Shown: in pieces, positions 1 to 41,198 of the stretch | Numbering within the stretch: position 1 is the first letter of the stretch | Layout: each line of letters begins with the position of its first letter | Source: Eledone cirrhosa | Taxonomy: Eukaryota | Assembly: GCA_964016885.1 (NCBI GenBank) | Contig: OZ024743.1 | Location: 152,768,001-152,832,000 of the forward strand | DNA: 64,000 bases | Direction of reading: 5' to 3' | Translations under genes and position numbers: made by a program | Notes under the pieces: model-generated | Seen by the model: the letters and a program-made list of their open reading frames with translations, nothing else | Told to the model about the DNA's origin: nothing | Database searches by the model: none

Positions 1-37
1 ATAGAAGAAATTAAAAGATGGTTAAAAAAGTTCCATA

Positions 38-107
38 TATTTTATTATGCACATTTCGAAAACAACATCATCCTGTGACAAAAAATGTGTTCTCATCAGA
101 TAAAATA
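38..107 (-). ncRNA. Type I hammerhead ribozyme
   Basis: Minus strand: UAUUUUAU-CUGAUGA-stem II-GAAA-UGUGCA-UA-AUAAAAUA; 8-bp stem I. Confidence 0.75.
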
Positions 108-202
108 AGATAACATGATATGAGGCCTAAAAACAATTGTGAACAAGAAAGTGTCCATTCAATATGTAGACACATGTTTTTAGGCCACATATCATGTTAC
201 CT

Positions 203-272
203 TATTTTATCTGATGAGAACACATTTTTTGTCCCAGGATGATGTTGTTTTCGAAATGTGCATAATAAAATA
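203..272 (+). ncRNA. Type I hammerhead ribozyme
   Basis: tattttat 203-210 pairs with ataaaata 265-272; CTGATGA 211-217; bulged stem II; GAAA 253-256; tgtgca; TA cleavage site 263-264. Confidence 0.75.
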
Positions 273-419
273 TATGGAACTTTTTTAACCATCTTTTAAT
301 TTCTTCTTTATATATACTCCAGTTCTACCAACTGTTGAGTGCTACTTATCTGATATATGCATAGTTTTATTGTTCTACAATATTACTCACCTCCTACATT
401 ATATATATATATATATATA

Positions 420-1276: not shown

Positions 1277-1756
1277 AACTCTTTTGATATCAACTCATCT
1301 GAAACTATCACTGGTTCTATAATATGGAATGTGTAAAAGTGCTCATATTTATCTAACCGTTCCACCATAAACTTATCTAAAAAAACATTCTGTCAATTTG
1401 TTTTAAACACCAGCTGAATAAGTGTTTCCAATTTAGGCACAAGGCTAAACATTTGTGAAGCAAGGAAAGAAGTTGATAACATTAACACCAGTATGTGCCT
1501 GTATTTTATTGAATTTGGAAGGATGAGAGACAAAGTTGATATCAGCAGAATTTGAACTCAGAAGATAAAGGGCAATAACTAAATGCTGCAAAGAATTTAG
1601 TTCAATACTCTAATGATTCTGTTAATCAACTGTCCAACACCACTTAATAATGTTAGTTATAGTACTAAAACCATTTAAATTCTTGATTAGTTTCAATATT
1701 ATTTGAAAATCATTTACAGTCTCTTTCATTAGAAACATGGTAACTAAAGAATTAAT
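1277..1756. mobile_element. Old piggyBac-like (TTAA-CCC) MITE interrupted by a minus-strand SINE (~1430-1640)
   Basis: ttaactcttttgatatc...agaaacatggtaactaaagaattaa resembles copies at ~4631-4867 and ~6978-7239. Confidence 0.45.
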
Positions 1757-2859: not shown

Positions 2860-2999
2860 ATCATCATCATCATCATCATCATCATCATCTTAGTTTAACA
2901 TCTATCTTCCACGCTAGCATGGATTAGACGGTATATATATATATACTTGCAAGCAGGGAAAAGCGGACGTAAAATGATGATGATGATGATGATGATGAT
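2860..2999. mobile_element. Two ultra-short RTE 3' tails in opposite orientation around a (TA)n tract
   Basis: (CAT)n-...ccacgctagcatgg...agacgg matches the tail near 38120; cttgcaagcagggaaaagcggacgtaaaa(TGA)n matches tails near 24530 and 53586. Confidence 0.7.
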
Positions 3000-3006
3000 A
3001 TATATA

Positions 3007-3056
<50 letters not shown>

Positions 3057-3122
3057 GAAGAGAGAAGAAACATTTAGATATAATTAGTAATAAAATGTAT
3101 CATACCTAAACTGTTCCTAAAT

Positions 3123-3210
3123 TCCTCGACTACGTAGTTTCGTGGCATAAACAAAAACAATATATCAAAGATATAGAGTCCTTGCGAGGTCTGCCGACTT
3201 ATCAAGAGGA
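3123..3210 (-). ncRNA. Type I hammerhead, U3-A8 core variant
   Basis: UCCUC-UUGAUAA-GUCGGCA..UGCCAC-GAAA-CUACGUAG-UC-GAGGA. Confidence 0.8.
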
Positions 3211-3713
3211 TACCTCATTTTACTAGTCTCAAGAACGCGTCTACACGACGTGAGAAAGAATCCCAAAAGGCGGAGGGGGAGATAGTCACGCGATATAACG
3301 GTCGAGAAACAGAGCTAAGCCTCTTATAACCACGAAAAAAATACCACGGAGGCGGAGGGGGTATTCATACCGAGGCCGTAGAAGAGGTAGTGAAGAAGGC
3401 GAGAAGTATGAGTAATGGAAGCTTTCCAGTTGTCCCCACACTTCAAAGATTGCTCGACCAGAGGGAGTTATTAATACATTTAGAAACACACAGATACATG
3501 CGGACACACACATATATACATGAATGCATCCGCACCCAACTGTGAGTTAAGGGTGCCAACTTCACCGATGTTGCTCAATGAATGACTGGGACAGACCAAT
3601 TCAGTTTGAACCAGACTGAACCAGTATCAGAGTTAAAAATACATTATGAAGAGAGAAGAAACATTTAGATATAATTAGTAATAAAATGTATCATACCTAA
3701 ACTGTTCCTAAAT

Positions 3714-3801
3714 TCCTCGACTACGTAGTTTCGTGGCATAAACAAAAACAATATATCAAAGATATAGAGTCCTTGCGAGGTCTGCCGACTTATCAAGAGG
3801 A
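3714..3801 (-). ncRNA. Type I hammerhead, U3-A8 core variant
   Basis: Identical to 3123-3210, 591 bp away on the same strand. Confidence 0.8.
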
Positions 3802-4000
3802 TACCTCATTTTACTAGTCTCAAGAACGCGTCTACACGACGTGAGAAAGAATCCCAAAAGGCGGAGGGGGAGATAGTCACGCGATAAGAGGCTTAGCTCT
3901 GTTTCTCGACCGTTATATCGCGTGACTATCTCCCCCTCCGCCTTTTGGGATTCTTTCTCACGTCGTGTAGACGCGTTCTTGAGACTAGTAAAATGAGGTA

Positions 4001-4088
4001 TCCTCTTGATAAGTCGGCAGACCTCGCAAGGACTCTATATCTTTGATATATTGTTTTTGTTTATGCCACGAAACTACGTAGTCGAGGA
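4001..4088 (+). ncRNA. Type I hammerhead, U3-A8 core variant
   Basis: tcctc 4001-4005 / gagga 4084-4088; TTGATAA 4006-4012; GAAA 4070-4073; palindrome ctacgtag 4074-4081; TC 4082-4083. Confidence 0.8.
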
Positions 4089-4322
4089 ATTTAGGAACAG
4101 TTTAGGTATGATACATTTTATTACTAATTATATCTAAATGTTTCTTCTCTCTTCATAATGTATTTTTAACTCTGATACTGGTTCAGTCTGGTTCAAACTG
4201 AATTGGTCTGTCCCAGTCATTCATTGAGCAACATCGGTGAAGTTGGCACCCTTAACTCACAGTTGGGTGCGGATGCATTCATGTATATATGTGTGTGTCC
4301 GCATGTATCTGTGTGTTTCTAA

Positions 4323-4395
<73 letters not shown>

Positions 4396-5109: not shown

Positions 5110-5260
5110 TCAACCCCAGTACTAGACTGTTACTTTTTTTTATCGACCTTGAAAGGATGAAAGGCAAAGTTGACCATGGCAAAATTTGAACTCAGAGAGC
5201 AGAGTGCCAGAACGAATTTCTACAGCATTCTATCCAATGTTCTAATGACTTTGCGAATTC
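5110..5260 (-). mobile_element. Meta-like tRNA SINE, degraded
   Basis: tttatcgaccttgaaaggatgaaaggcaaagttgacc...atttgaactcag. Confidence 0.65.
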
Positions 5261-13724: not shown

Positions 13725-14030
13725 ATTGTTATGATTAAGGGGGACGTGGCCATACTACCAATAAAAACACACACACCTGTTGGTTTTCACTTCAATTTCT
13801 AACAAATTTCCAGTTGGTTGGTTTAATAACCAGATGGTTGCTTATTTATTGTCAAAGCCCTTTCGCCACACATTCTGTAACCTCCTCAGTGACTAATTTG
13901 TTATTTTGTGTCCCTCCTTCATTCTGTCCTACACCATCTTGGTTTTGTGTGATGTTTTTATTGGCAGCATGACCCTCCCAAAGTATAACAATACCTGTTT
14001 CAACACAGTTTTCAGATGAGAAATCTTTAA
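13725..14030 (-). mobile_element. HHR-bearing short element (family also at ~16170-16245 and ~36690-36950)
   Basis: Shared segments across three loci; HHR at 13851-13893; TA/CA tracts on both sides. Confidence 0.65.
13851..13893 (-). ncRNA. Minimal type I hammerhead
   Basis: GUCA-CUGAGGA-G-GUUACA gaaug UGUGGC-GAAA-GGGC-UU-UGAC. Confidence 0.65.
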
Positions 14031-14055
14031 AACACACACACACATATATACATAT

Positions 14056-15831
14056 ATAGAAGGTGTCATACCAAAAGATTGGTGCAGTAGCATCATTGTC
14101 AACTGCTACAAAGGTAAGGGTAATGCACTCGATAGAGGAAACTATAGAGTTATAAAGCTGATGGACCAGGTCATGAAAGTAACAGAAAGAGTTATAGCAC
14201 AGTTGATTAGGGGCCGGGTGAAACTAGATGAGATGCAATTTGGGTTTGTACCAGGAAGAGGCACCACTGATGCCCTCTTCCTTGTGAGGCAGTTACAGGA
14301 AAAGTACCTAGCTAAAAGTAAGCCACTCTACCTGGCATTCGTCGATCTCAAGAAAGCCTTTGACAGAGTTCCACGTGCTGTAATCTGGTGGGCTCTTAGA
14401 AAACTAGGAGTAGATGAATGGCTTGTGAAAGCTGTAAAAGCCATGTATAGGGGAGCAGTCAGCAAAGTTAGGATTAGCAATGAGTATAGCGAGGAATTTA
14501 GCATACAGGTTGGGGTCCACCAGGGCTCTGTTCTTAGCCCTCTCCTGTTCATCATAGTCCTGCAGGCAATAACGGAGGAGTTTAAGACCGGATGCCCATG
14601 GGAACTCCTGTATGCTGATGACCTCGCACTTATAGCTGAATCTATGGTAGAACTAGAGAATAAATTCCAAACTTGGAAGCAGGGACTAGAAAGAAAGGGT
14701 CTCAAAGTCAACATGACAAAGACTAAGGTCCTTGTAAGTAGACGAGAAAACAGAACCCAGATCCCCTCAGGGAAATAGCCTTGCTCAGTATGTAGGAAAG
14801 GTGTAGGTAGGAACTCGATTCTCTGCCCCAAATGCAAACAATGGGTACACAAGAGATGTAGCTGGATCTCAGGAAGCTTAATTAAGAATGTAGGCTTCAC
14901 ATGCAGCAGCTGTACTGGGACAGCAAGCAGCAAACAGCCACAGGAAACAAGTACCACCAATCTCTGGGGGGGCTCTGCTACCTAGGTGACCGAATTAGCA
15001 GTGGAGGTGGGGGTTCAGAAAGTACAATAACTAGGGTAAGAACGGAATGGAAGAAGTTCAGGGAACTACTACCACTGCTAGCTGCAAAAGGCTTATCCCT
15101 CAAAATGAAAGGCAGACTGTATGATGCGTGTATCCGAACAGCAATGTTACATGGTAGTGAGACCTGGGCGCTGAAGGTGGAAAACTTACGTAGATTAGAG
15201 AAAAATGAATCCTGCATGCTCCGATGGATGTGTAATAGTAATATACGTGAACGACAAAGCATAAATGAATTGAGAGAGAGACTGAGCATAAGAGGCGGCT
15301 GCGTTGGTATGGACATGTGATGCGTATGAAGGATGACAGCTGCATAAAAAGGTGCAGAGCACTAGAAGTCGATGGAAACCACGGAGTGGGGAGACCCAAG
15401 ATGACCTGGGATGAGGTGATAAAAGCCGACCTTACCCAATTACATCTCTCAAAGGCGATGACACACGTCCGTGACCTCTGGCGTCACGCAGTAATACAGA
15501 GTACCCGACATCCCATGGGTACAAGCTGAAGCATATAGACAATATGCCCCCACACCCTCCCACTGCAAGGTGGTCGTGGAGGTGGCAAGGCAAAAAAGCA
15601 CCCAGCCCACACTGTAAAGTGGACGTGTAGGCGCCACGAAAAAACACCCAGCACTCACTGTAAATGAGGTTGGTGTTAGGAAGGGCATCCAGCTGTAGAA
15701 ATCAAGCCAAATCAGTTCCTGTATGAGCAAGGCATGGTCAGCCGACCAGACACTGCCCACAACAGGACAACCCGTCTAACCCTTCCTAGCGTGGAAGAAC
15801 GGACATAAGACGGTGATGATGATGATGATGA
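14056..15831 (+). mobile_element. RTE-clade LINE, 5'-truncated, RT pseudogene
   Basis: QFGFVPGRGTTDA, FVDLKKAFD, GVHQGSVLSP, YADD; premature TAG and deletions; 3' UTR ending (GAT)n. Confidence 0.95.
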
Positions 15832-21123: not shown

Positions 21124-23691
21124 GGTGGTGGTTGGGTAGTAGTGATACTGACCTGGTTTCAGGCTTGTCTGACATTAGAATTAGGATATATTTCTCCATC
21201 ATATCTTTATAAACATTTATGAACTATTCAAATAACTTACTTTTAAAAGTGAAAATAGCAATATTGAATTTCTGAAATCACCCTCTTTGATCATCCATCA
21301 ACAATGCATTTACTGATCCCTGAAGACTATTATGCAACATATGCAACATATTGTTAAAAGTGTTGACCTCATAGCCCTTATAATTGTGTTTTTCTACGTT
21401 TTCACTTTAAATTCCAGTTGGGTTTAATTTTGCTTTTTGCACTCTGAGATTGGTAAAATAAATACTAGTTCAAGTGAATATATTCTATGTATTTGTGGAT
21501 TTGTGTCAATGTAAGAAATAAATTTACAATGGTGTCTAGATGTGTAATAGTAGGTGGTAGATGTCAAATTTGCCAATTAGATGCTTAGTAAAAAAATGTT
21601 GTATCTATTTGTGTACAAGCCACATCTTTTTACACAGAAATATGAAGTGAAAACCAGCATGCCACTTATGTAATGGATCAACAAAACTTCGATTCAAAAT
21701 ATATATTATATTGTAAATGTTTTTGTATGCAAAATGGTGGCTTGACTTATATACATATACCAGTGTGACTTGTACATGAGTATATATTGTTAATTTTCTG
21801 AATAATTAAGAACTATTCAAAAATTCAAATATTTTGTAAGACAAAAAATATTTTCTATTTCATTTTATTGAAAAACAATTTTTTTATAGTTTCAAAAATC
21901 AAAGTGTTTTAAAAGAAAAAAAGGTGCTTTTATTTTTCTTCTCATCCATAACAAATTTTAGGATTAATTTATAGAAAATTCCTGATTACTTTTTAATTCA
22001 AGCAATTTTCAAAAATATTTTCTTCCTACACTTTTTTCCCTTTCAAGTATTTTCTTAGTTTCAATAATTAAAAAGAAATTGATAAAAAGTATTATCATAC
22101 TACTTAGTTCAAAGTACAATAATATTTTAAATATTTTTGCATTTATGGTAATTTTTTAGATATTAATTTATAGAAAACAACATTTAATTCTTGCATTTAA
22201 GAGATGTAATGTAATAAAAAAGAGAAACGTCTCACATCAAAGAGTTGTTCATTTCAAATGATGCAATATCGATACAATATCTATGCATAGAGTTTAGACA
22301 TACATTTTAGATCTGTTGAATAAAACCTCCTTAGTGAAGGTGACATGATAAAAGTATGCAGGTCCATGCTGTAAAGTGGTTAGCAATAGGATGAAAAGCT
22401 AGCTGTAAGAAACTTGCAGCAAAAGTATAGATGGATTCTGCAGCCAGAGCATAGGGGCAACCTGTCTAAGAAAACAGTCACTCTGAATAAAAATGCTGAT
22501 ACGGGTTTGATGGGATACTTTAGTCCTTCTAACGGCAATCTCTCTAGTGTCAGTGGCATAATATAAGGCACTATGAAATGTTTGATGACAGGTCAGGCAT
22601 TCAGGGGGAATATCAATTCCCAAAACAGATCACATACAAAATGATGGCAATTGTTTTCTGTCATTGTATGTGGTAGATGAAGAAAGATTATGCTGCATTA
22701 TGAGATGCTATGAGACATGTTCAACCCATGCTATAATAAAAAAAACATGCATAAAATTAAGACAGTGATTTATATAACAAAGAATGTTAAATTGTATCTG
22801 TAGATATCATATTATTGACTAAAACAAAACTTGCTTATCCAGAAGAAGGGCAGCATAGTCTCTATGAGTGGTTAGAGGAAAAGGCCAGGATCCATATGTT
22901 GCTATAGTAGACAGCAGCTTACCAAAGTGGAGACCCAGTCCAGGTTCAGGCAGTTGTGATAATTCAACCAATGGATTTGTTTAAAAAGTCCAAACAGATG
23001 ATAATCAGAATTAACTAGAGATTTTGAAAAATAATTATTCATTATATTGAAAGTAATAGCAAAATCAATTTATCAATTGCTGCTAAGAATGAACAAGAAA
23101 GCTTGAAAAGATAAAAAAAGTCAAACAAGATTCAAATCTCAATACTATTATAACACAATTGTAAAACATGTTGCATTTGCATTACAGTCCATATACAAAT
23201 TAAAAAGACCGCAATATTATCATTGAAATGTCGATGATAATTATCAATTTATTACAGTTGGAGAAAGTTTAGTGCCAAGAAACGAAAATATGAATCAGAG
23301 CAGGATCATTTAAACATTTCATAGATATATTTTTGTATTTCCTGGGTAATATATGATTTGATAAAAAAATTATATATATGATTTGATAAAAAAATTGAGG
23401 GTTTAAGTGAGACCTATAGATTATCAGATATGAGTATTAGACTTAATTCATGCTCCATTCTAACACCATCACCCGACCCCTTATGTAGCATTAATGAAGT
23501 CTATTCTGTTGTAAGAATATGGGCCAGATCAGGTTGCCAATTTTAGTATACATTTCTCCTTCCCTTTTATCAGTCCCACAGACTCTAAGGAATGTGGCCA
23601 TTGCTCTTCCCTCTCTGACTAATCAGTAAAAACCTGTCTTATTTCATGAGATATGGATAAAAGGAATTGCGTCTATGGAATAAATGAAATA

Positions 23692-26125
23692 TTGGGTTGA
23701 GTCGTACATAATTTTCGTGTTTTTAAAGCAAGTTGTAACTATTCATTTCAAACTTCCAATGTTTTAAACTCAACTAGAAATTACCTGATTAAAGAGAGTC
23801 TTCATTGGTCATTTCATTAGTGAAAAAGTGTGCATAATAATTTAATCTAAGATTTCATGCCCCTAAAATAGAGGAACTTAAAGTGCATATTTGACACATA
23901 ATGTGAGAGTTTAAGAATGAGAAAAATGCTACAGAAACAACTAAGAAAATTACTGACTGCCAAGTTCAAAACTGGATTTCAAAGTTTAGTTCTGGTAATA
24001 TACCATTGAGAGATAAACCCAGACAAGGATGCACACAGACCTAGATCAAGATGCTTTAAGAGAATTGGTGGAATGCATTCCATGTAAAAGTACTGAAGAA
24101 TTAGCACTTGACCTCACACATTCCAATACACAATCTGCCACCACTTGAAAAAGATAGGAAAATTGAGCAAGCTGGGCATTTGTGTTTCTCATACTTTTAG
24201 TGAGAAGAATAAGCAAGATCGCATATCCATAGTGACAAGTCTTCTTTCAAGGCAGAGAAATGACCCGTTTCTCAAGAGTATCCTTACAAGGGATGAAAAT
24301 TGGGTCTTTTATGACAATATTCAATGCAAAAAGCAGTGGATTAATAAGGATAAATATCCACAGCCTACCTCAAAGGCAGAAAAATTATGCTGTGTGTATG
24401 GTGGGCTAACTGCAGTATTATTCATTTTGAGTTTTTAAACAGCAATCAAACACTCAATGCAGACTTATTCTCTCAACATCTACAATGTGTACATGGAAAT
24501 CATAATCATCATCATCATCATCATCATTTTACATCTGCTTTTCCCTGCTTGCAAGGGTGGGACAGGTCCTATTCAGCACAGCATCTCTCCACTTGTCACG
24601 GTCCTTCGTTATCTCCTCCGTGAGCTTCAGCAATCTGAGGTTTGCTCTCACCACCTCCGCCCATGTTTTTGTAGTCTTCCTCTACTGCGTCTTCCTTCTA
24701 TTGGCATTTCGTGGCACTTCTTTACCCAGCGGTCATCCTCCATGCGCATCACATGTTCATATCATCGCAGTCTTCTCTCCCCCACACTACAACTTATCCC
24801 TCTTAAACACAGTTTCTCTCTCAACTCATCCATGCTCAATCGTTCAAGTACATTGACATTACACATCCAACGGAGCATGCTTGCTTCATTTCTCTCCAGG
24901 CATCGCATAGCCTCTGCAGTTGCTGCCCATGTCTCACTATTATGCAGCATTGTGCACCTCACACAGCCATCATATAACCGGCCTTTCATACACAGGGAGA
25001 AACCCTTCTTTGTCAGCAGAGGAAGCAGCTCCCTAAACTTCTTCCAACCTGTCCTTATTCTAGATACTATAGCATCGGAACCCCCCCCCCCTCCTCATGC
25101 TAATCTTATCACCTAGGTAGCGGAAGCTATCAACCACTTCTATAGAACCTACCCGCATTTGAAAAATCTGTCTATCAATGTGATTTCTACTGTCAAATTT
25201 CCCTGTACATCTACTGCATACGTATTTTTCCCTACCTGTTACTTTGCCTATATCCCACTACATCTCTTGTGTATCCAAGATCAGCATATCGAACATAGCC
25301 ATTTCCCTGACGGAATCAGAGTTTTGTCCTCTTTTCTACTTATCAACACTTTTGTCTTAGCTAGGTTCACTCTCAGTCCTCTTAATTCCAACTGCTGTTT
25401 CCATAGCCAGAATTTATTCTCTACTGATTTTGCTATAAGAACCAGATCGTCAGCATAGAGAAGTTCCCACGAGCAGCCAGTCTTAAACTCCTCTGTTATG
25501 GCTTGAAGGACAAGAGGACTGAACTCTGATGTACTCCTACTTGTATCTGTAATTCCTCACTAAACTCCATTCCTACCTTCACTTTACTGATAGCACCTCT
25601 GTACAAAGCTTGCACTGTCCTCACAAGCCATTCCTTAACACCTAGTTTCCTTAGGGACCACCAGATGACAGATCGGGGTACCCTATCAAAAGCTTTCTCT
25701 AGGTCAACAAAGGCTAAGTATAGTGGCTTATTCTTCTCTAAGAACCTCTCTAAGAAAATGCTCTGCACTTGCCAACAGGAGAGATGTTGCAAAGTCACTT
25801 TCAGCAAGAATCATGCAGGAAAAAATATTTGATTTAGGCTGGTCTGTTCTATCTCATCCATCATATTCATTAGATCTTGATCTAAGTGATTTCCATCTCT
25901 TTTGTTCTCTACAAAATGCTCTGAGAGGCAAAACATTTTCTCAAGAAGATCAGATGAAAACGTTTGTGGAAAACTTCTTGAGCTTGAAATCAGCTGAATT
26001 TTACTTGAGAGAAATCAAAAAGCTAGAAATGGCAAGAGAATATTGAAAATAATGGCGAATTGATTGAAATTAATTCATTGTTAAATTATTCATGAATAAA
26101 TTATTTTATCTATGACTCAACCCAA
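23692..26125 (+). mobile_element. Mariner DNA transposon, transposase pseudogene, interrupted by RTE
   Basis: TIRs ttgggttgagtcgtacataa / ttatctatgactcaacccaa with TA on both sides; ILTRDENWVFYDN and HPSYSLDLDLSDFHLF remnants. Confidence 0.9.
24500..25745 (-). mobile_element. RTE LINE fragment nested in mariner
   Basis: LAFVDLEKAFD, GVHQ, YADD and KGRLYD on minus strand; (CAT)n tail at 24500. Confidence 0.9.
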
Positions 26126-26708
26126 TAGTTAAAAATTATTCATACTTGATAGAAATATAGCATCAAAATTTTGTCTCTGTCAGTAAAATTTTCCACAAAA
26201 ATTGTTAATTTATTCTCATCTAGTTAAAATAAGAGTAAAGTTTTGTTTGATACAAATACTTGATAAAAATAATAAACATATGAAGCAAAGTACAAAACAT
26301 TACTTTTCCTTGATTAATATTTTTGTATGTATTTAAAAACTTACACGCATGTACATTCACATGCACACATCTGTCCACAATAAGTTTTACCTTCTCACTT
26401 TATTCAACTGACTTGCTCAATGTTGGATAAAGGGCTTAATGTTAATGATCCTTAGTAACTTTTCTAGGAAATATTTGACCCTTTATTTTTTAAATTTAAT
26501 TTCATTTATAAGTCCTGGAAGCATTTTCAAGGCTCCTTTCACCAGGCTAAAATGCTTATAACCGAATGGATTTCACTTGAAGCACCCAAGTAACAGTGTT
26601 TAACTGGACGACAGAGTTAGTTCTTTATACACAAAACTACAATATTCTCAACTAAACAATTCACTTATCTTGGACAGAAAAAAAGTATTTGTAAGAAACT
26701 TGACAATG

Positions 26709-26968
26709 TTTTTACACTCAGAGATGCTGAAGCATGGAGCAAACTACCTGCATCCGTTGTTAGCTGCCAAGACACTGCATCCTTTAAAACCTCCATGCTT
26801 TGTGAGATTCTACACCTGATATCCCCCCTCTATACACACGCACACATGTATATCATGACTCATTCACTTTCCTGACATTTGTACATTATTATATGTACTA
26901 TAAATGCACCTTTGATGAGTTGTAGTGCACCTGATCACTGTACACAATCATTTCATTATTATTATTAT
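26709..26968 (+). mobile_element. CR1-type LINE 3' fragment
   Basis: Matches 36066-36460 with a single tail unit and (TTA)n; followed by a SINE fragment at 26970-27070. Confidence 0.85.
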
Positions 26969-28747
26969 AAGCCGAGGTTAACTTTGCCTTTCATCCTTAC
27001 GGGGTCAATAAAATAAAGTACCAGTAATACACTGGGTAATTGCTGGCCTTGTGCCAAAAATAGAAACAATTGTTATTATAATCAAGCAATAAATAGTAAA
27101 AGGAAGTTTATGTTACTATTGTTGTTTTGTCATTAGTCAATCTAAATCAGCCTTCACTAAGCATAGTCTTATGATCAAAGGTGCTCCGACCATGACCATC
27201 TCATTATTCCTAGTGTTTTGTTTTTAAATAAAGCTGTAAGGTGTGATTTCAGGAGATGTGGTTGCTATTTCTAACAGTTTGAGAGACTCCTATAAAAAAT
27301 TTGAAGGATGGTGTTGTTTTTTCTGATACTGGTGCTGATAGAAGAAGAAGAAATAGAAAATTCAGAATTTTGAAAGCAAGCAAACAATTTTTTCATGGTA
27401 ATGAAAAAAGAAAACTTTACATTCAAAACTAGTATTTTGTAAGTAAACGTTATGTGTTAGCATTTTCACTATTTGGAGATATGATTTATAGAGAAAATAT
27501 TTATAAAACATAGTCAATGTTAAATATAAGTGATGTAACAAATAATAGTAAATAAACAAAAAACTTTAAACACAATGCTAAAGTTTCTACCAACATTGAA
27601 ACATATCATTCAAGCTTCATTGATATAATAATGTAAACAAGCTTCATTATTTTTTTTAATAGAATATCAGCATTTTAAAATATAATGACTAAAATGCTGT
27701 CTAAATTATAAGCTGCATTGAGGATATACACTATAACACAATACAAAGGCAACTGGCTCTCTAAATAAAATAAATCTATGAAAATACTGACACTTCTAAC
27801 TAAAAGAATGTATTTTAGAAAATTAATTCACCAAAATTATTGTGAAACAAAAAAATATATATTTTATTGAATAAACTTACTGACAATATTAGAAAACATG
27901 AAGATAACGATTAATTTTATCGAGATAAATATATCAGAAACAGAGGAGAAGTAAATTCTTCTATACATAACTTGTATTGGAATCTTTGCTAGAGTAGACA
28001 CAACATCCAATATGATTTCTCTTGTTTCTCAAGGATTTTCCTAATTTTTTTCTAAAATGAATCTGGCAATTGATTGTAGCATATTCCGAATCGTAATTAT
28101 TGGTTTTCTTTTAAAACATAATTAGTTACGCTCACAAGTTTTGAACTTTTTTCAATAAAATATATAGTTTTATGTAAGTCTTAAAATATTTGCAAGCCTT
28201 GGAATGGAGATCTCTCATTGCCTGATGGTCCATAAAGAAGAAGAAGAAGAAGATGAAGAAGAAGAAGAAGAAGAAGAAGCTCCTTCATTTCTTGCCTTAC
28301 ATGGATGATATATACATATATCCTCATCATCATCATTTTATATACACATCATCACAGTTAAAGTTTGTTCTTATTTGGAGTTACTACCACTCTAGATGAA
28401 TTAGAGGACTATGTATCACTTTCACATTTCAATTTTGGCATGGCTTCTATAACTAGATGTATTTCCTTACACAAACATCTTTACAGAGTGTACTGTGTGT
28501 AGTTGCATCTTGGCACCAGCCCTAGAGAATTTGTTATATCTTTGACAGAATTAATGTGTCTCCTTGAATTTATATTATCTGTTTGGTTACATAATAAAGT
28601 TAATCCTCATTTTAATACACCCTGACTAAACGGATTTGGGATTTAATTGACAAAATAAAGTTAATGCGATACACTAATAAATAGTAATTTAAAAACATGA
28701 AAAAAATGTATTTGGAAAAAGGTGAAGATATAAACTTTCAGGAAAAC

Positions 28748-28824
<77 letters not shown>

Positions 28825-29093
28825 ACTGTTCTGTAGAACAAAATAAAAGGTAGGAGAAAATGAAACATAGAATGATACAAGATGAAGAAACATACAGAAG
28901 AAAATGAGAAATACTAGTGAAGTGGCTGGCTAACAGAATATAGGAGTGTAATAAAGAACAACGAAGTTGAGTGAGTTCATGAGTGATATCATATGAGTAA
29001 GTGAGTAAGAAACTCGATCAGGGAGGAAGTGTGAGAGATATACATAGCCCTTAGGTTATCTGCAGGAAACTTTTCACCTACTTGTTTGTTATG

Positions 29094-31560
29094 ATCATCA
29101 TCACCGTTTTACGTCCGTTCTTCCACGCTAGCATGGGTCAGACGGGTTGTCCTGTTGTGGGCAGTGTCTGGTCGGCTGACCATGCCTTGCTCATACAGGA
29201 ACTGATTTGGCTTGATTTCTACAGCTGGATGCCCTTTCTAACACCAACCTCATTTACAGTGAGTGCTGGGTGCTTTTTCGTGGCGCCTACACGTCCACTT
29301 TACAGTGTGGGCTGGGTGCTTTTTTGCCGTGGCACCTCCACGTCCACCTTGCGGTGGGGAGTGTGGGGGCATATTGTCTATATGCTTCAGCTTGTGCCCA
29401 TGGGAGGTCGGGTACTCTGTATTACTGCATGACGCCAGAGGTCATGGTCGTGTCTCATTGCCTTTGAGAGGTGTAATTGGGTAAGGTCGGCTTTTATCAC
29501 CTCATCCCAGGTCATCTTGGCTCTCCCCACTCTCCGCGGTTTCCATCGACTTCTAGTGCTCTGCACCTTTTTATGCAGCTGTCATCCTTCATACGCATCA
29601 CATGTCCATACCAGCGCAACTGCCTCTCCTGCACACAGCATTTGATTCCTCTTATGCTCAGTCTCTCTCTCAATTCATTTATGCTTTGTCGTTCACGTAT
29701 ATTACTGTTACACATCCATCGGAGCATGCAGGCTTCGTTTCTCTCTAATCTACGTAAGTCTTCTACCTTCAGCGCCCAGGTCTCACTACCATGCAACATC
29801 GCTGTTCGGATACACGCATCATACAGTCTGCCTTTCATTCTGAGGGAGAAGCCTTTTGCAGCTAGCAGTGGTAGTAGTTCCCTAAACTTCTTCCATCCCG
29901 TTCTTACCCTAGTTATTCTACTTTCTGAACACCCACCTCTGCTGCTAATTCGGTCACCTAGGTAGCAGAAGCTGTCTACTGTTTCTACAGAGCCCACCCA
30001 GAGATTGGTGGTACTTGTTTCCTGTGGCTGTTTGCTGCTTGCTGTCCCAGCACAGCTGCTGCATGTGAAGCCTACATTCTTAATTAAGCTTCCTGAAATC
30101 CCGCTACATCTCTTGTGTACCCATTGTTTGCATTTGGGGCAGATAATGGAGTTCCTACCTACACCTTTCCTACATACTGAGCAAGGCCATTTCCCTGAGG
30201 GGATCTGGGTTCTGTTTTCTCGTCTACTTACAAGGACCTTAGTCTTTGTCATGTTGACTTTGAGACACTTTCTTTCTAGTCCCTGCTTCCAAGTTTGGAA
30301 TTTCTTCTCTAGTTCTACCATAGATTCAGCTATAAGTGTGAGGTCATCAGCATACAGGAGTTCCCATGGGCATCCGGTCTTAAACTCCTCCGTTATTGCC
30401 TGCAGGACTATGATGAACAGGAGGAGGCTAAGAACAGAGCCCTGGTGGACCCCAACCTGTACGCTAAATTCCTCGCTATACTCATTGCTAATCCTAACTT
30501 TGCCGACTGCTCCCTTATACATGGCTTTTACCGCTTTCACAAGCCATTCATCTACTCCTAGTTTTCTAAGAGCCCACCAGATTACAACACGTGGAACTCT
30601 GTCAAAGGCTTTCTCAAGGTCGACAAATGCCAAGTAGTGTGGCTCACTTTTAGCTAGGTACTTTTCCTGTAACTGCCTCACAAAGAAGAGGGCATCAGTG
30701 GTGCCTCTTCCTGGTACAAACCCAAATTGCATCTCATCTATTTTCACCTGGTCCTTAAAAAACTGTGCTATAACTCTTTCTGTTACTTTCATGACTTTCA
30801 TGTCCATCAACTTTATACCTCTATAGTTTCCTCTATCTAGTGCATCACCTTTACCTTTGTAGCAGTTGACAATGATGCTACTGCACCAATCTTTTGGTAT
30901 GACACCTTCTAGTATTACCTGGTTAACTATACGTGTGGTTATAGTGTGACCTACAGACCCAGATGCCTTCAGTATCTCGGCAGCTATACCCAATGGACCG
31001 GTTGCCTTCCCCATCTTCATATCTTTGATTGCCTTACTTACTACGTTGCTGCTGACTTGTACTGCTGGCCCCTCTATAGGGTCTACTTGGGGTAGGGTCT
31101 CTTCTTCCCATGCATTCTCCTCATTTAGTAATTTATCATAATGACTCTTCCATGCATCTTTCTTCTCAGCACTTGTGAGGGCAAGCTCACCTTTATCATT
31201 CCGGATACACTTCTCTCCAATGACATCACAACTCTCTCTGACTCACTGCCTCGCAATCTTGAACACCTCCTGTTTCTGGTCCTCATGTTGCAAAACATGC
31301 TTGAATTTTCTATCCTCTGCTTCCCTCCTAGCTAAGTATACTTGTCGCCTAGCTTCCCTCTTGGTCTCTATGTAATGTACCCTGCTCCCCCCGTTCTTCC
31401 AGTCTTTTCATGCTGTCTCTTGGCCTTAACTGCCTCATCTACCTTATTGTTCCACCACCAAGTCACTCTCCTCCTGCTTGAGGTCTTACTCTAGCCACAG
31501 ACCTCATCCGTCGCCTCTAGTAAATTATTTTTTAGCAACTCCCAGTTCTCTTCTACATTG
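29094..31560 (-). mobile_element. RTE LINE, 5'-truncated
   Basis: Reverse complement of the 14056 family; (CAT)n tail at 29094. Confidence 0.95.
29512..31020 (-). pseudogene. RTE reverse transcriptase plus C4HC3 finger, 502-aa open frame
   Basis: NYRGIKL, QFGF, AFD, QGSVLS, YADD, WPCSVC..CPKC..WVHKRC..CSSC; no endonuclease domain. Confidence 0.9.
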
Positions 31561-31642
31561 AGTTCTCTTCTACATATATATATATATATACTGTAGTATA
31601 AGTTTGGTAGAAATATCCGTCCATAGGATGAGTTTGGCATAA

Positions 31643-31758
31643 ATAGTTACAATAGTGACATAAATAGGTACTTAAGTTTCGTTGGGTTCAGGCTGAATGA
31701 CTTGGTACCCAGAATCCAACGAAACTTAAGTACCAATTTCTATCACTTTTGTAACTAT
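31643..31758. repeat. Short inverted repeat (31643-31689 / 31712-31758) holding HHR 3' halves
   Basis: GAAA-CTTAAG-TA in both arms; flanked by (TA)n. Confidence 0.75.
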
Positions 31759-33329
31759 ATATATATATATATATTTAGTTACAACAATATATATATAAAT
31801 ATTATTTTCATTAAAACAACAGGACACCAGACTGGTGTCATTTTAATCAAAATAATAATTAACTCCGTTCCTTCACCACCAACAGGACTCAACATCAAAG
31901 ATGGATAAGTTGCGTAAAGTTGAGTTCTTTTCCTACTATTACATCTTGGTTAAATATACACAATGAACAGAGTTCTATCCAGTGGCAAACCACCAAACTT
32001 AAATATATATATATCGTTTTTAATTGTTTGGTATGCAAATGAGGCTAATCAAGCGAAGTATACTTTAGAAAATACTATATATTTTCAACTGTTCAATCGA
32101 GTGGCATAGAAATATACAGTCCTGCTGCCGAACAAACGGATGGCGATAGCCATCAGGGCACAGCATAGCTTTGTAAGGCTATTTGCTTGCAAACGAATCG
32201 AATATTATTATTATTTGATATAACCCATGGCTACGTGTGTGTATATATATGTGTATATGTGTACATATAAATATACATATGTATAAGTTGTACAAGAATG
32301 TTGTTTATCTTAGTTGTTACATAGTAAGTCCTGAAGATAAGTCCTAGCGATCCAAAGCACTAAACGCCAGTAGCTTATCCCATGTTTATGCTCGCAGTCA
32401 TCAATGTCAGTACTTGCACATGTTTATGTAAAGATGCATGCGTTTGGATTAATATGCAATATTATAGGTGATATATGTTACTGTTTTCTTTTATTAAATA
32501 ATATATTTTTGTGTATGGATTATTATACAATAATACATATAATATACATTACTATATTCTTATATTATTATATGTTTTCATCAATACCAGGATGTCTAGT
32601 ACCATTATTATCAATATAACTGTTATAATTATCTTTACCTTTATAACTAGTTGGGCAACCATCATTATCACTACACATATGCCTGATATAAGGACCTATA
32701 CATATAGCTAATATGTTTCTCTCTATATATACTCATATATCTTTTATATTTTCTTACTTTCTTTTATATTTTTATATATCTATATTTCTATATTATTGTA
32801 TCCCATATTTTCTTACATTACCATTTATTTTTTATTTTCATGTTTTTTTTTAATGTTTTTTAAAAAGGTTTTTTAATATTTGTTTGAAATATTTACTAAT
32901 ACCTTTAGGTATTTAAAAAAAAGTTTCTTTAAATATATATTTATATTTTTTTTATATTTATATATCTATATTTTTATATTTTAAAAAGTTTAATACTTTC
33001 TTATATTTTTTTATACATATTCCTTATATATTCCCTATATGTTTATTTTTTTATAGGTATTACATTAATATTCTCTATATTTTCTTTACATTTTATCCCC
33101 TTATAATTTTGCCAATCAAGCTCCATCCTATAAACTATATTACTTTAATTTATATGTACGTATATATGTATGTGTGTACAGTATATGGGTATATACATAT
33201 GGTGTATACATAATGTTCAAATATTAGGTAGTATGGGCTCGACATAACCAATGCTGGAACCAAAATTGTTGTTGTTATTTTCGATGGTGTAAGAAAATAT
33301 ATGAAAATATGTGATCTACCCGCAATAAC

Positions 33330-36300
33330 TGGCAATGTAAAAACTGCTACAACTCTGGGAAACTAAACCAGAACAACCTGCCACCCTCTACACACCATCA
33401 TAAACTGCGAGCAGGGTACAAATTGTTGTCATTAAATGCTCGCAGTTTATGCAACAAGATACATCTGTTCGAATCCTACGTCAGAAGCATCGACCCTGAC
33501 TTCATCACAGTCACGGAAACATGGGCACATTCCTTACTCTGTGATGGGGTTTTCACCATTACTGGGTACAACCTTTTCCGCAAGGACCGCATTAACCGCC
33601 GTGGTGGTGGTGTGATGGTCTACGTTCGTTCAAACTTTTCGGTAATTCCTTGCGTTGATTTGAACGAATCACAGGAAGAAGTTTTTTTCTGTGACATACG
33701 TATGACCATGTCAACACTTCTGCTTGGTGTTGTTTATCGCCCCCCAAACTACCATCAGGACACACAGCTTTGCGATATCCTCAGAGTTGCTGCCAAGAAA
33801 ACAGCCACTTATGTGTTTATTGCAGGTGACTTCAATCATCCTGAGATCGATTGGGAAACCTTTCGTTGGCCACAGGGTGCAAACGATTTCCTTGAACTAG
33901 TGCTGGACTCAAACTGGTCACAAGTAGTCACCTCTCCAACAAGAGGTGACAACACTTTGGACCTGATCTTCACCACTACTCCTGAAGTGGTTATCAGTTG
34001 TACTACTGAGGAACCTCTAGGCGACTCTGATCATGCTATGATCATTGCCAATCTGGCACTTGAGGGCAGCAACAAAAACCAGGGCCATCTCCAATCTGCT
34101 TGCTTTGATTGGAAGAGGGCGGATTGGAACTTGTACTGCACTGAGCTACAGCGCCCAAACTGGCATGAGATGTATAACTATGGAGATGTGAACTCTATAC
34201 TCCAGAGCATCCTGGACTCAATATGGATAGCGTGTGCAGCATCAGTGCCACGGAAGCGGAAAAATAACCACCCCAAAAGTGCAATCTGGGAAACTTCAGC
34301 GGTCCGACTTGCCAGGAAAGAACGTCGGAACGCTGAACGGGAATATAAACTGCATAGATCAGATGCCAACAGAAAAAAGCGGAATAAATCTTCTAACCAT
34401 CTCAAGCAAGTGACAAAGAAGGCAGTGCTTGAATTTGAACAGTGCATCGCAACGAATCCTGACAGTAAGGTGTTCTGGAAATATGTTCATTCAAAGCAGA
34501 GACCTCACTCTCCAGTTGGTCCTCTTCGCAATCCCCACACAAGCCAGATCACTGACGATCCTAAGGAATGCGCAGAACTCATTGCTGAGTGCTATGCAAG
34601 TATTTTTACTGTTGAAAACCAGAATGTACCATCTCCACCATCTCTAACATCAAATTCCATAACAACTATGGAATTTACACCTGCAATGTTGCGACGTCAC
34701 CTTAAGAATAAGCGCAACTATGCCTCCCCTGGTCTTGATGGTGTGACATACCTGCTTCTCAAACGTGGCGGGGATTTCCTTTTGCGCCAGCTTTCTTTTT
34801 TCTTTCAATACTGTCTCAGCAATGGTGCTACTCCGGAGCAGTGGAAAACTGCCAGTGTCATTCCCCTGTTCAAAAAGGGCAACCGCATGTCACCTGTCAA
34901 CTATCGTCCAGTCAGTCTTACTAGCTGTATGGCCAAACTGATGGAATCCTGTGTCAGAGAAACACTTTGGAACTTCTGGAGCTCTCACAGCCTCATCCGG
35001 CCCTCACAGTTTGGATTTATCCCTAACTCCAGCTGCTGTGATCAGCTTATCGAGTTCCTTGAGGACATCACCCGGATCACTGACAGCGGCTCATGGGTGG
35101 ATGTTGTTTACCTTGACTTTGCTAAGGCTTTTAATTCTGTGCCACACAAAAGACTTATGGCAAAACTCTCTGCAATGGGTGTGAGGGATGATCTTTTCGA
35201 CTGGCTGAAATCCTTCATTCTCAGCCGAAAGGAAGTAGTCACGGTTCTAGGACAGCATTCTTCACCATATGAGATGTCATCTGGTGTACCACAGGGATCT
35301 GTTCTTGGTCCTCTTTTGTTTGTGGCATATATTAATGACATAGATGCCAACTTACAGAATGCCACGGTACTAAAATATGCAGATGACATCAAGCTGTACC
35401 TTGAAATCAAAAGGACTGATCCTGAAATTTACAACTCTTTCCTACAATCAGACCTGGACACAATGCAGCAATGGATCACAGACTGGCAACTGAAGCTGGC
35501 TGTGGACAAGTGTACCACCATGCATTTTGGAAGGAAAAATCCAGCGTCCACATACTCCCTCCACAACACTGACATCAAAAAGTCCTCTTGTGAACGTGAC
35601 CTGGGCATTACTGTCAGCAACGATTTGCGTTGGACAAAGCATGTCTCTAAGATTGTCAAGAAGGCCGAGGGTGTCTTGGCATCACTCAGCAAGACCTTTG
35701 TTAGCCGCTCTCCAGCCATCTATTTAAAACTGTATACAGCTATGGTGCGACCACACTTGGAATTCGCATCATCAGTCTGGAACCCCTATCTTGCTCGGAA
35801 CATTGAACTCCTGGAAACTGTTCAGAGACGTGCAACCAAGCGCATACCCTCCATCAGACACCTACCATACTCTGAACGCTTTGCTTCCCTGGGCATGGAT
35901 TCATTGAAGCTCCGACGTCTGGCAATGGACTTGGTGAATACCCACAAAGTTTTTAACCATCTCGCCAACTGCAACCCTGAGCGCCTCTTTGATCTCCATG
36001 TCTAACACACGTGGACATGCCTACAAGATAAGAAAACAGCACAGCTCCCATGACTTTCGCAGACATTTTTTCACGCTCAGAGTTGCTGAAGCATGGAACA
36101 AACTACCTGCGTCAATTGTTAGCTGCCGAGACACTGCATCCTTTAAGACACTCATGCTTCCCGAAATACGCCAAAACTACACCTGATGTGCCCCTTCCAT
36201 ACACATGCACACATGTGTGCACTGTTCATTTTACTGATGTTTGTGCATTGCCCTATGTACTGTACATGCACTTTTTTGATGGGTTGTGGTGCACCTGGGC

Positions 36301-36460
36301 ACTGTGCACAATATTTCATTATTGTTATTGTTATTATATCATGACTCATACACTGTTTATTTTCCTGACATTTGTACATTATTCTATGTACTATACATGC
36401 ACCTTTGATGAGTTGTAGTGCACCTGAGCACTGTACACAATAATTTCATTATTATTATTA
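33330..36460 (+). mobile_element. CR1-clade LINE, 5'-truncated just upstream of ORF2
   Basis: APE plus RT ORF, duplicated 3' stem-loop unit, (TTA)n tail. Confidence 0.9.
33423..36186 (+). CDS. LINE ORF2 (AP endonuclease plus reverse transcriptase), one frameshift near 36000
   Basis: NARS, VTETW, GDFN, LDL, SDH; NYRPVSLTS, QFGF, YLDFAKAF, GVPQGSVLGP, YADD, VRPHLEF; C-terminus TRGH..FFTLRV..WN in the next frame; no ATG start seen. Confidence 0.9.
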
Positions 36461-36746
36461 TATGTCCCTGTCTGTACATGTGGAAATACGTGGAAATATA
36501 CACTTATGCATATCTATGAATGTACATTCGAATATCTGTACTTATATAAACATGTAGATGTCTGTATGTCTCTATGTGGGTTATGTATCTGTATATATAT
36601 ATATATATAAGTGTGGGTGAATAACTATATTTACATTATATTCTAACACCACTATCATCGTCTTATATAAGGAAACATTGCTGTTACTGTTGCCAAAACA
36701 AGATGGTGTAGGACAGAACAAAGGAGAGACACAAAATAAAAACCCA

Positions 36747-36789
36747 GTCACTGAGGAGTTCCCAGAATGTGTTACGAAAGAGCTTTGAC
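36747..36789 (+). ncRNA. Degenerate minimal hammerhead (13851 family)
   Basis: GUCA-CUGAGGA-(decayed stem II)-GAAA-GAGC-UU-UGAC. Confidence 0.55.
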
Positions 36790-37120
36790 AATATATAAAC
36801 AACCATCTGGTTATCGAACCAACCAACCAACCGGAAATTTATAATAAATTGAAGTGAAAACCAACAGGGGCATGTGTTTTTATTGGCAGCATGACCCTCC
36901 CAAAGTATAACAATATCTGTTTCAACATATGTTTTCAGATAAGAAATCTTGCAAAACAAATAAAAAAAATGAAGTATATATATATATAAATGCAAGAAAA
37001 TTTCAATGATACGAAAGATTTCCTGGTGGAAGTTCAAGTATACTCCAGGTTGGTATCCAATTAGAAATTCCAATGAATTTTGAGAGGTCCATGTAAGCAT
37101 TGATATATATATATGTATGT

Positions 37121-37572
37121 AAAAGGTAAACAGAAATAACAACACAATCGGTACAGTATATGGAAGGGATATATTAAGTTAACGCTTGATATAGCAGGAA
37201 GAGGTTCTTACGTTAGTCTTTCATCAGAAGAAAGAATGAGAAATAAGATAGATTGAGGGGCCAGGCAGGCTGAAATTGGAAAAATGTCTTGAGATTGGGC
37301 ATATTGAAGGTACTAGGGTGGGAGTGAAAAATAGACGGGTGAGAAGAAGAAGGTGGTGTAAGAAGATTATAGGAGAGCCCGGAGTACACTTGAACTTTCG
37401 TATCATTGAAATTATCTTTGCTTCTTGCATTTAAATATTCCACGACTCTCTACCACTTTTCCTCTACTAGCGTCCGAAACGTTAAGACCCTCTTCCTGCT
37501 ATATCAAGCATTAACCTAATATATCCCTTCCATATACTGTACCGATTGTGTTGTTATTTCTGTTTACCTTTT
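37121..37572. repeat. Inverted repeat (37121-37214 / 37478-37572) with complementary HHR remnants
   Basis: ~94-bp arms; minus copy keeps TCTT-CTGATGA, plus copy keeps CC-GAAA-CG-TT-AAGA. Confidence 0.8.
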
Positions 37573-37573
37573 C

Positions 37574-38177
37574 GGTCACGTGATGCGCATGAAAGACGAC
37601 AGCTGTATAAAAAAATGCAGGGCAATCAAAATAGACGGAAGCTACGGAGTAGGTAGACCCAGAAAAACCTGGGACAACTTGATAAATTCTGACCTTACAC
37701 ACTTGCACTTCTCCAAGACAACGTCACTGGACCGAGATCTTTGGCGTTACACAGTAATACAGAAGACCCGCCTTACCTAAGTACATAGCGAAACCTACAG
37801 TCAGTAGGCACCTCTTAACCAAAATACACCCCATCTCACTACCCTACCCCCAACCCCATCTACACGATCCCTCTTGATGTAAAGTTATGTTGGTACCACA
37901 ACATCCAGTCCTAAATAAATGAGGTCGTGTAGGTGTCACAACAAAAAAACACACAGTCCACGCTGTAATGTGGCCATGTAGATAACATGGTAAAAACCTC
38001 CCAGTCCACACTGTAAACGTGGTTGGTGTTAGGAAGAGCATCCAGCCATAGAAAACCTGCCAGACAGTCCTACACGAGCAAGACAACCAATCTTGCCTCA
38101 AGTGGGACAATTCCCGTCTAAACCCATGCTAGCGTGGAAGATAGATGTTAAACAATGATGATAATGATGATGATGAT
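37574..38177 (+). mobile_element. RTE 3' end (second family)
   Basis: GHVMRMKDDSCIKKC..GRPRKTW; 3' UTR like 49440-49847; (GAT)n. Confidence 0.9.
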
Positions 38178-38197
38178 ATATATATGTGTGTGTATAC

Positions 38198-38237
<40 letters not shown>

Positions 38238-38466
38238 ATAATTATGTATATATGTAAGTCAGAGAAAAGTCGAAAGGAAATTGTTTTGGTTTTTTAAACT
38301 ATCAAAAGTAGGTGGTAAATTTTGGGGGAAATTATAGATTCGACAAACAAAGAAATTGTTGAAGAGGGTAAAGCATACTTCCATGCATATTCATAATAAT
38401 GCAGTCGGATAAGAAATGTGAACAAAAATATTTTCTTTTTTCTTGGTCATTTTTCATATATTATAA

Positions 38467-40735: not shown

Positions 40736-40738
40736 ATA

Positions 40739-41138: not shown

Positions 41139-41198
41139 TATATATATAAAGAGAGACAGTTTTATTTGTACATCTTCATTTTATTACCTATTATGGAA

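What the first reader, a model, noticed from the sequence alone, without database searches (positions are those of the whole stretch)
3052..4328. Young non-coding 591-nt hammerhead-delimited element: candidate retrozyme / circular-RNA system
Seen: two identical minus-strand type I HHRs (3123-3210, 3714-3801) exactly 591 bp apart in a direct repeat, then an inverted copy (3884-4328) with a third HHR. That copy reads continuously across the monomer junction (3642 to 3052). The element sits inside (TA)n, has no meaningful ORF, and its copies show no visible divergence. Known: non-LTR retrozymes are tandem HHR-bounded repeats that yield circular RNAs and are thought to use PLE machinery. Inference: a transcript would self-cleave to a 591-nt monomer, and the permuted, more-than-unit-length copies fit reverse transcription around a circular or multimeric template.
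Basis: partly seen in the sequence, partly recalled or inferred. Interest (0 to 1): 0.92.

Follow-up and report, generated by a model that had tools for sequence, protein, structure and literature searches.

The report
Ribozyme retroelement copied from two starts
This is one of thousands of young copies of a non-coding 591-base repeat that carries a predicted self-cutting hammerhead ribozyme, and its insertions nearly always end at one of two fixed points, one per side, which likely means a Penelope-type jumping-gene enzyme copies it twice at once from a likely circular RNA.

Summary
Window 3052-4328 is a head-to-head insertion in (TA)n of a non-coding 591-nt unit with three type I hammerheads (U3-A8 core, palindromic stem III, predicted dimer-type). 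The family is large: 5,621 exact ribozyme matches in the genome and dispersed arrays of up to 7 units per arm. The ends are not freely permuted. 141 of 146 arms end 3' at site A (+76-85 after the cleavage site) or site B (+241-247), while 5' ends are scattered. Two-armed insertions pair A with B (44 of 49 fetched; 39 of 39 in coordinate lists). Coding Penelope-like elements (PLEs) in the same genome follow the same rule (14 of 14), so this is the PLE 'tail' signature, here 165 nt long. Variants private to one insertion are often fixed in all units of both arms, which points to a single-unit template, likely a circle; four variants do not fit. No coding PLE with DNA homology was found. Hydra-clade PLEs have the closest architecture. 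Cleavage and circular RNA are untested. Verdict: an animal non-LTR retrozyme (non-autonomous PLE) whose insertions record two-site priming. Interest 0.55.

The parts
3052..3886 (-). Left arm, 1.41 units (unit positions 424 through two cleavage sites to 76); its 3' end is site A, joined to (TA)n
3884..4328 (+). Right arm, 0.75 unit (unit positions 392 to 245); its 3' end is site B, joined to (TA)n
3128..3718 (-). One 591-nt unit between predicted cleavage sites (predicted monomer/circle; sense circular fold z -6.1)
3123..3210 (-). Type I hammerhead 1: U3-A8 core, long stem II, 10-nt palindromic stem III; predicted cut between 3128 and 3127
3714..3801 (-). Type I hammerhead 2; predicted cut between 3719 and 3718
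4001..4088 (+). Type I hammerhead 3; predicted cut between 4083 and 4084
4164..4328 (+). 165-nt 'tail' between site A and site B, present at the end of the right arm only
3884..3886 (.). Head-to-head junction of the two 5'-truncated arms, 3-nt overlap (microhomology)
2998..3053 (.). (TA)n target, left side
4326..4375 (.). (TA)n target, right side

Best explanation
This is one insertion of a young, dispersed, non-coding 591-nt tandem retroelement whose arms end at two fixed internal sites, likely because a Penelope-like RT/GIY-YIG enzyme supplied in trans nicks both strands of a (TA)n target and primes two cDNAs, one at each site, on one RNA that is likely a ribozyme-cut, religated circle. Steps: (1) transcription of an array (inferred); (2) adjacent hammerheads pair through the palindromic stem III and cut out 591-nt monomers (predicted by folding, supported by core conservation); (3) ligation to a circle (inferred from known retrozymes and from unit homogeneity); (4) one target end primes at site A and the other at site B, 165 nt apart (end positions shown; priming inferred); (5) each cDNA runs for 0.1 to 7 units straight through the cleavage site (shown); (6) the two cDNAs are joined head-to-head, mostly at 1-5-nt overlaps (shown), or a single arm is joined to (TA)n. 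The likely driver is a Hydra-clade PLE. I put about 0.9 on 'non-autonomous PLE passenger', about 0.8 on two-site priming and about 0.6 on a monomer circle as template.
For: Fixed 3' ends: A 78, B 63, other 5 of 146 arms; 138 of 141 A/B ends run into (TA)n; 2,506 A-end+(TA)n matches genome-wide. Pairing: A+B in 44 of 49 two-armed insertions, B+B 0, A+A 1; 39 of 39 in coordinate lists, P about 2e-12 if the ends were independent. The same rule holds in coding PLEs of this genome: 7 of 7 Neptune-like, 3 of 3 in a 1217-aa family, 4 of 4 Hydra. Two internal RT start sites, cutting and extension of both strands, and a predicted dimer are reported for the anole PLE (PMC11167929). Arm lengths are uncorrelated (rho -0.07); 12 of 42 pairs have lengths impossible for simple fold-back copying; 29 of 42 junctions overlap by 1-5 nt. 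No pile-up of 5' ends at the cleavage site (3 of 146 within 10 nt) and 84 of 146 arms exceed one unit, which excludes a single pass over a cleaved linear monomer. 29 variants private to one of 96 insertions are fixed in all its covering units; L094 has five, each in 7-8 units across both arms. Hammerhead core differences 1 of 1,118 versus 723 of 50,477 elsewhere; the dimer cofolds 13.7 kcal/mol below two monomers; the sense circle folds at z -6.1, the antisense at -130 versus shuffle mean -136 kcal/mol. One insertion switches from this family into a second 316-nt hammerhead repeat (L055).
Against: No RNA data were available, so cleavage, ligation and the circle are unshown. Four variants occur in exactly one unit of each arm of an insertion (L032 twice, L038, L039); a pure monomer circle does not predict this, and L038 fits a linear multimer in register. 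In the anole PLE, ribozyme cleavage was not needed for insertion in vitro and uncleaved RNA was the main substrate. Eight of nine Xenopus retrozyme dimers tested did not cleave in vitro. The 1217-aa PLE family forms tandems without a hammerhead detectable by my regex. 'Private' means unseen among 96 of some thousands of insertions. No coding PLE with DNA or protein homology to the unit was found, so the driver is assigned by architecture only. Part of the core-conservation figure is biased, because 54 loci were chosen by a pattern covering half the core; the unselected half (unit 561-591) is still conserved, 6 of 2,889.
Confidence: 0.6

Rival explanations
1. Same PLE-driven two-site priming, but the template is an uncleaved linear multimer transcribed from a genomic array; the ribozyme acts at another step or not at all.
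For: HHR mutants did not impair insertion by the anole PLE in vitro. The L038 variant sits in the same register in both arms. A PLE family without a detected hammerhead also forms tandems.
Against: Linear copying with 5' truncation can only shorten arrays (median arm 0.9 unit in the positional sample), yet diverged subfamilies have long homogeneous arrays (L094: 0.14% within, 1.3% to the nearest sampled insertion). Only 1 of the 4 inter-arm variants fits the register. Core conservation argues that the ribozyme matters. Repeated template jumping on a linear monomer would also regenerate arrays and is not excluded.
Confidence: 0.27
2. The inverted arm is made by fold-back self-priming of the first cDNA (or of an antisense template, as proposed for rotifer Penelope), and the second end is then cut at the other site.
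For: Proposed in PMC3846280 from palindromes at junctions. A few junctions here are near-mirror (L091, L086, L097), and 8 of 42 lie within 35 nt.
Against: 8 of 42 is not above the 5 expected (p 0.12). In 12 of 42 pairs, including this window, the shorter arm is not contained in the longer one. Either arm can be the longer (A 24, B 18).
Confidence: 0.07
3. The unit is only the terminal repeat (pLTR) of a longer coding PLE, or a satellite expanded locally at the DNA level from such a repeat.
For: Animal retrozymes are homologous to pLTRs in Xenopus and local satellite growth was proposed. Hammerhead-to-end architecture matches Hydra pLTRs here.
Against: None of 146 arms in 92 loci continues into a PLE frame; the two flank hits lie beyond host DNA or (TA)n runs. 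The unit joins to itself head-to-tail at dispersed loci on at least 11 contigs, each with fresh A/B ends. Unequal crossover would not put the fixed ends on both arms.
Confidence: 0.05
4. Fold-back assembly artefact.
For: A perfect 418-nt palindrome.
Against: The arms are unequal and end at different conserved sites; there are dozens of independent loci with different junctions; the unit junction occurs in contigs of 3 of 4 runs laid.
Confidence: 0.01

Closest known systems
Animal non-LTR retrozymes (Cervera and de la Pena 2020, PMC7229834; Li et al. 2026, bioRxiv 10.64898/2026.07.22.740005)
   Same: Non-coding, low-GC tandem repeats with one type I hammerhead per unit, thousands of copies, co-existing with PLEs; predicted highly paired circle.
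   Different: The 591-nt unit is above the 150-450 bp of the first paper (inside the 51-972 bp of the second). U3-A8 core with long stem II. No target-site duplication is discernible because the target is (TA)n. Two fixed ends and head-to-head A+B insertions were not found in the passages read.
EN+ Penelope-like elements, insertion anatomy (Craig et al. 2021, PMC8557442; Arkhipova et al. 2013, PMC3846280; Frangieh et al. 2024, PMC11167929)
   Same: Partial tandems, inverted 5'-truncated arm, tail often at one end only, microsatellite or AT-rich targets, two internal RT start sites downstream of the hammerhead.
   Different: No ORF. The tail is 165 nt rather than 30-40. The tail/no-tail pairing is near-absolute here. 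Both arms can exceed one unit (13 of 49).
Hydra-clade PLEs (Craig et al. 2021)
   Same: Families in this genome with RWK-like, DKT and CxCX5C motifs have a pLTR hammerhead (one family with U3-A8), a pyrimidine-rich site about 50 nt after the cut, a second site about 95-108 nt further, and (TA)n targets.
   Different: No alignable DNA similarity to the 591-nt unit beyond the ribozyme core.
MRC1 and other non-autonomous Chlamys PLEs (Craig et al. 2021)
   Same: Non-autonomous, multicopy head-to-tail insertions.
   Different: Those resemble their autonomous partner at the 3' end, and most Chlamys lack canonical hammerheads.
LINE-1 twin priming
   Same: Two target ends prime on one RNA and give a head-to-head inversion joined by microhomology.
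   Different: In L1 the second site is opportunistic and the arms do not overlap; here both sites are fixed and the arms copy the same sequence repeatedly.

Membership tests
Animal non-LTR retrozyme | Tandem repeats with a type I hammerhead in each unit | tested here: met
   U3-A8 core is a described PLE variant (PMC4209133); no Rfam match at gathering score
Animal non-LTR retrozyme | No protein coding; no LTR/PBS/PPT layout | tested here: met
   Longest frame within an arm 86 aa; no tblastn hit below E 0.24 from 20 long frames; PBS/PPT not searched separately
Animal non-LTR retrozyme | Dispersed, recently mobile copies | tested here: met
   identity to the window unit 81-100%, median 97.5% in the positional sample
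Animal non-LTR retrozyme | Self-cleavage (monomer or dimer) | not testable with these tools
   Folding and conservation only
Animal non-LTR retrozyme | Expressed as linear and circular monomer RNA | not testable with these tools
   No RNA holder listed
Animal non-LTR retrozyme | Target-site duplication larger than 4 bp when present | tested here: inconclusive
   The target is (TA)n on both sides, so a duplication cannot be read
Non-autonomous EN+ PLE | Partial tandem and inverted 5'-truncated arm | tested here: met
Non-autonomous EN+ PLE | Two alternative 3' ends (tail) downstream of the hammerhead | tested here: met
   141 of 146 arms; tail 165 nt
Non-autonomous EN+ PLE | Intact autonomous PLEs in the same genome with the same target and end rule | tested here: met
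Non-autonomous EN+ PLE | Sequence homology to the pLTR of a cognate autonomous family | tested here: inconclusive
   None among the families fetched; each protein search scored at most 150 of 23,000-42,000 candidates, so the survey is incomplete
Autonomous PLE | RT plus GIY-YIG ORF between pLTRs | tested here: not met

The most novel reading that the evidence does not exclude
Penelope-type integration is an obligate twin-priming reaction on a circular RNA: a dimeric enzyme holds one circle at two fixed sites, nicks both strands of (TA)n and rolls out two overlapping multi-unit cDNAs at once. This 591-nt ribozyme circle, with sites 165 nt apart and no coding burden, records the reaction thousands of times and is a minimal substrate for rebuilding it.
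Probability: 0.4. Interest if true: 0.8.

Novelty: new variant of a known kind. Interest (0 to 1): 0.55.

Why it matters
That animal retrozymes are moved by Penelope-like enzymes, and through circles, has rested on co-occurrence and pLTR homology; how PLE tandem, inverted and tail structures arise is stated as open in the papers read. Here a non-coding hammerhead repeat carries the full PLE insertion signature, and the near-absolute A+B pairing constrains the mechanism to two primings per event. A small, young, high-copy RNA with two mapped start sites, and intact candidate enzymes in the same genome, makes the circle-versus-multimer question directly testable in vitro.

Tried and rejected
Rfam gathering scan of the window: 0 matches. 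Search for RNA runs: no RNA holder listed. Run X1 holds a 621-nt self-joined contig (591+30), but its library type is unknown and tandem DNA would give the same contig, so it is not used as evidence of a circle. Hunt for a cognate coding PLE: loci of an older Neptune-like family (29), young Neptune-like and 1217-aa families (20 stretches) and Hydra-type families (20 + 20 stretches) gave no DNA similarity beyond simple repeats and one neighbouring copy of the 591-nt element itself (L182). tblastn of 20 long frames against the unit gave nothing below E 0.24. A five-way alignment downstream of the cleavage sites was uninformative (41% mean column identity). Pfam and NCBIfam barely recognise these PLE proteins, so clades were assigned from motifs in PMC8557442; the 1217-aa family was left unassigned. 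The bacterial promoter scan is irrelevant and at chance level. Earlier-findings look-ups by place and by sequence were empty. Literature searches listed no paper on this family or on strict pairing of ends in retrozymes; most subscription papers and all bioRxiv supplements are outside the library, and no supplements were read. Rows dropped: the L072 duplicate and L110 (an 81% fragment) were left out of the 44 A+B pairs, giving 42; the L072 duplicate was left out. My notebook names L110 as the A+A case; it is L068 (two 60-nt pieces, 84-86% identical).

Full report
Observation. A 591-nt direct repeat and a 418-nt perfect inverted repeat make up a left arm on the minus strand (3052-3886) and a right arm on the plus strand (3884-4328), joined 5' to 5' with a 3-nt overlap and flanked by (TA)n. 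Each unit has a type I hammerhead: stem I UCCUC/GAGGA, core UUGAUAA, a long stem II, GAAA, and a stem III that is a 10-nt palindrome, then GUC. Rfam finds nothing at gathering score, and the isolated 106-nt piece folds no better than shuffles. Two copies, however, cofold into the classic dimer hammerhead, 13.7 kcal/mol below two monomers. The U3-A8 core and palindromic helix III are described for PLE hammerheads (PMC4209133, passages). There is no meaningful ORF.

A large, young, dispersed family. The unit has 635 first-look candidates, of which 40 were scored, all about 99-100% identical. A 26-nt piece of the ribozyme matches exactly 5,621 times, with control 0. I analysed 38 top-identity loci and 54 loci taken in order along contig C1. 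Identity in the second set runs from 81% to about 100%, median 97.5%, and the median arm is 0.9 unit. The longest arm is 7.2 units. The host is an AT-rich 3.0-Gb genome; a cephalopod-like host is only my recalled impression and was not tested.

Two fixed ends. Numbering from the predicted cleavage site, 78 of 146 arms end at site A (+76-85), 63 at site B (+241-247) and 5 elsewhere. 138 of the 141 A/B ends run into (TA)n, and A-end+(TA)n occurs 2,506 times genome-wide. The B pattern gave 1,092 forward matches; its reverse count is inflated by double matches. 5' ends are spread round the unit with no pile-up at the cleavage site (3 of 146 within 10 nt), and 84 of 146 arms exceed one unit. A single pass over a cleaved linear monomer cannot give this.

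The A+B rule. Of 49 head-to-head insertions, 44 pair A with B, none B with B, one A with A (a decayed 60-nt hairpin, L068) and four pair A with a rearranged end. In the coordinate lists for C1 up to 88.1 Mb (79 A ends, 70 B ends), all 39 divergent pairs within 8 kb are A+B; 18 of these lie beyond the fetched region. The window is one such case: A on the left, B on the right. Arm lengths are uncorrelated and either arm can be longer. 29 of 42 junctions overlap by 1-5 nt, mirror junctions are not enriched (8 of 42, expected 5), and 12 of 42 length pairs cannot arise by one arm folding back on the other. The simplest reading is two independent primings per event, one from each target end, on one RNA bound at two sites.

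It is the PLE signature. The genome holds many intact young PLEs: a Neptune-like 784-aa family, a 1217-aa family and several Hydra-type families. One Hydra protein shows the DKT, RWK-like and CxCX5C motifs of the clade description. All insert in (TA)n and have two 3' ends, and every inverted insertion with both ends visible pairs one of each: 7 of 7, 3 of 3 and 4 of 4. Tails are about 38 nt (Neptune-like), about 45-55 nt (1217-aa), about 95-108 nt (Hydra) and 165 nt here. The literature describes a 30-40-bp tail often at one end only (PMC8557442, passages and section 11; PMC3846280, passages). It ties the tail to two internal RT start sites of an enzyme that cuts and extends both strands and is predicted to be a dimer (PMC11167929, parts 1-2 of 4). 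A Hydra family here has a U3-A8 hammerhead and a pyrimidine-rich first site like site A, which makes Hydra the likeliest driver. No family examined shares alignable DNA with the unit, and no arm continues into a PLE frame. One insertion switches from this family into a second, 316-nt U3-A8 repeat (L055; that pattern class has 2,345 matches), which suggests a shared enzyme.

Circle or multimer. Among 96 insertions, 29 variants seen in only one insertion are fixed in all its covering units (four of these are in short decayed fragments). L094 has five such variants in 7-8 units across both arms, and differs 0.14% internally versus 1.3% from the nearest sampled insertion. Another 81 private variants are in only some units, as expected of later mutation. 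This points to a single-unit bottleneck per insertion: a circle, or repeated jumping on a monomer. The sense circle is strongly structured (-171.7 versus -136.5 +/- 5.7 kcal/mol in 40 shuffles; antisense -130.4), and the ribozyme core is conserved (1 of 1,118 versus 723 of 50,477; the unselected half 6 of 2,889). Against this, four variants sit in one unit of each arm, and one of them (L038) fits a linear multimer. Published work also found cleavage dispensable for a PLE in vitro and 8 of 9 Xenopus dimers inactive. No RNA data were available.

Comparison and novelty. By the genomic features that could be tested it is an animal non-LTR retrozyme (PMC7229834, passages). A 2026 preprint (parts 1-3 of 5 read) already argues from co-occurrence and pLTR homology that these are non-autonomous PLEs. 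The element class is therefore known. My searches did not list a description of this family, of a retrozyme with the two-end tail signature, of a 165-nt tail, or of a quantified tail/no-tail pairing rule. Verdict: a real, new variant of a known kind, interest 0.55. The bolder reading, obligate twin priming on a circle, has probability about 0.4 and would deserve about 0.8.

Noticed in passing
window 1-400 (left end checked in L060): A second hammerhead-bearing inverted element (canonical CUGAUGA core, hammerheads near 99 on minus and 211 on plus) in (TA)n, apparently with one short and one ~95-nt longer end; relatives recur in many fetched loci.
   Followed up: partly
window 54800-58060: A decayed C-terminal GIY-YIG PLE (Hydra-like by eye) with an inverted 5'-truncated arm and a 140-nt pLTR repeat (55458-55598 / 57918-58057).
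   Followed up: partly
L055:2159-2830: Switch from the 591-nt family into a second 316-nt U3-A8 hammerhead tandem family within one insertion; that family forms arrays and inverted pairs genome-wide.
   Followed up: partly
L199:1360-7850; L211-L213: Hydra-clade PLE with an 877-aa frame, a U3-A8 hammerhead, a unit over 5 kb and a ~108-nt tail; published Hydra elements are described as generally under 3 kb.
   Followed up: partly
L177-L184: Very young 1217-aa PLE family with an Asn-rich insert, a 4.1-kb unit and many identical intact copies; no hammerhead found by my regex; clade unassigned.
   Followed up: partly
L165-L176: Young Neptune-like family with two frames (455 aa upstream, 784 aa RT-EN), 4.7-kb unit; no hammerhead found by my regex.
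   Followed up: partly
L228:7100-8500; L230:330-680; L202:1-1200: Further hammerhead repeats: a UUGAAAA-core element with paired ends, and a CUGAUGA-core repeat spaced 300-480 nt apart.
   Followed up: no
L032, L038, L039: Four variants are each shared by exactly one unit of each arm; in L032 their order is reversed between the arms. Unexplained.
   Followed up: partly
window 14020-14778, 29512-31242, 33315-36005, 47016-49004: Long LINE-type RT frames; two were scanned and match RVT_1, one with an AP endonuclease and one with a PHD finger.
   Followed up: no
window 1487-1590, 2423-2526, 5121-5224: Three diverged copies of a ~104-nt SINE-like repeat (family D3).
   Followed up: no
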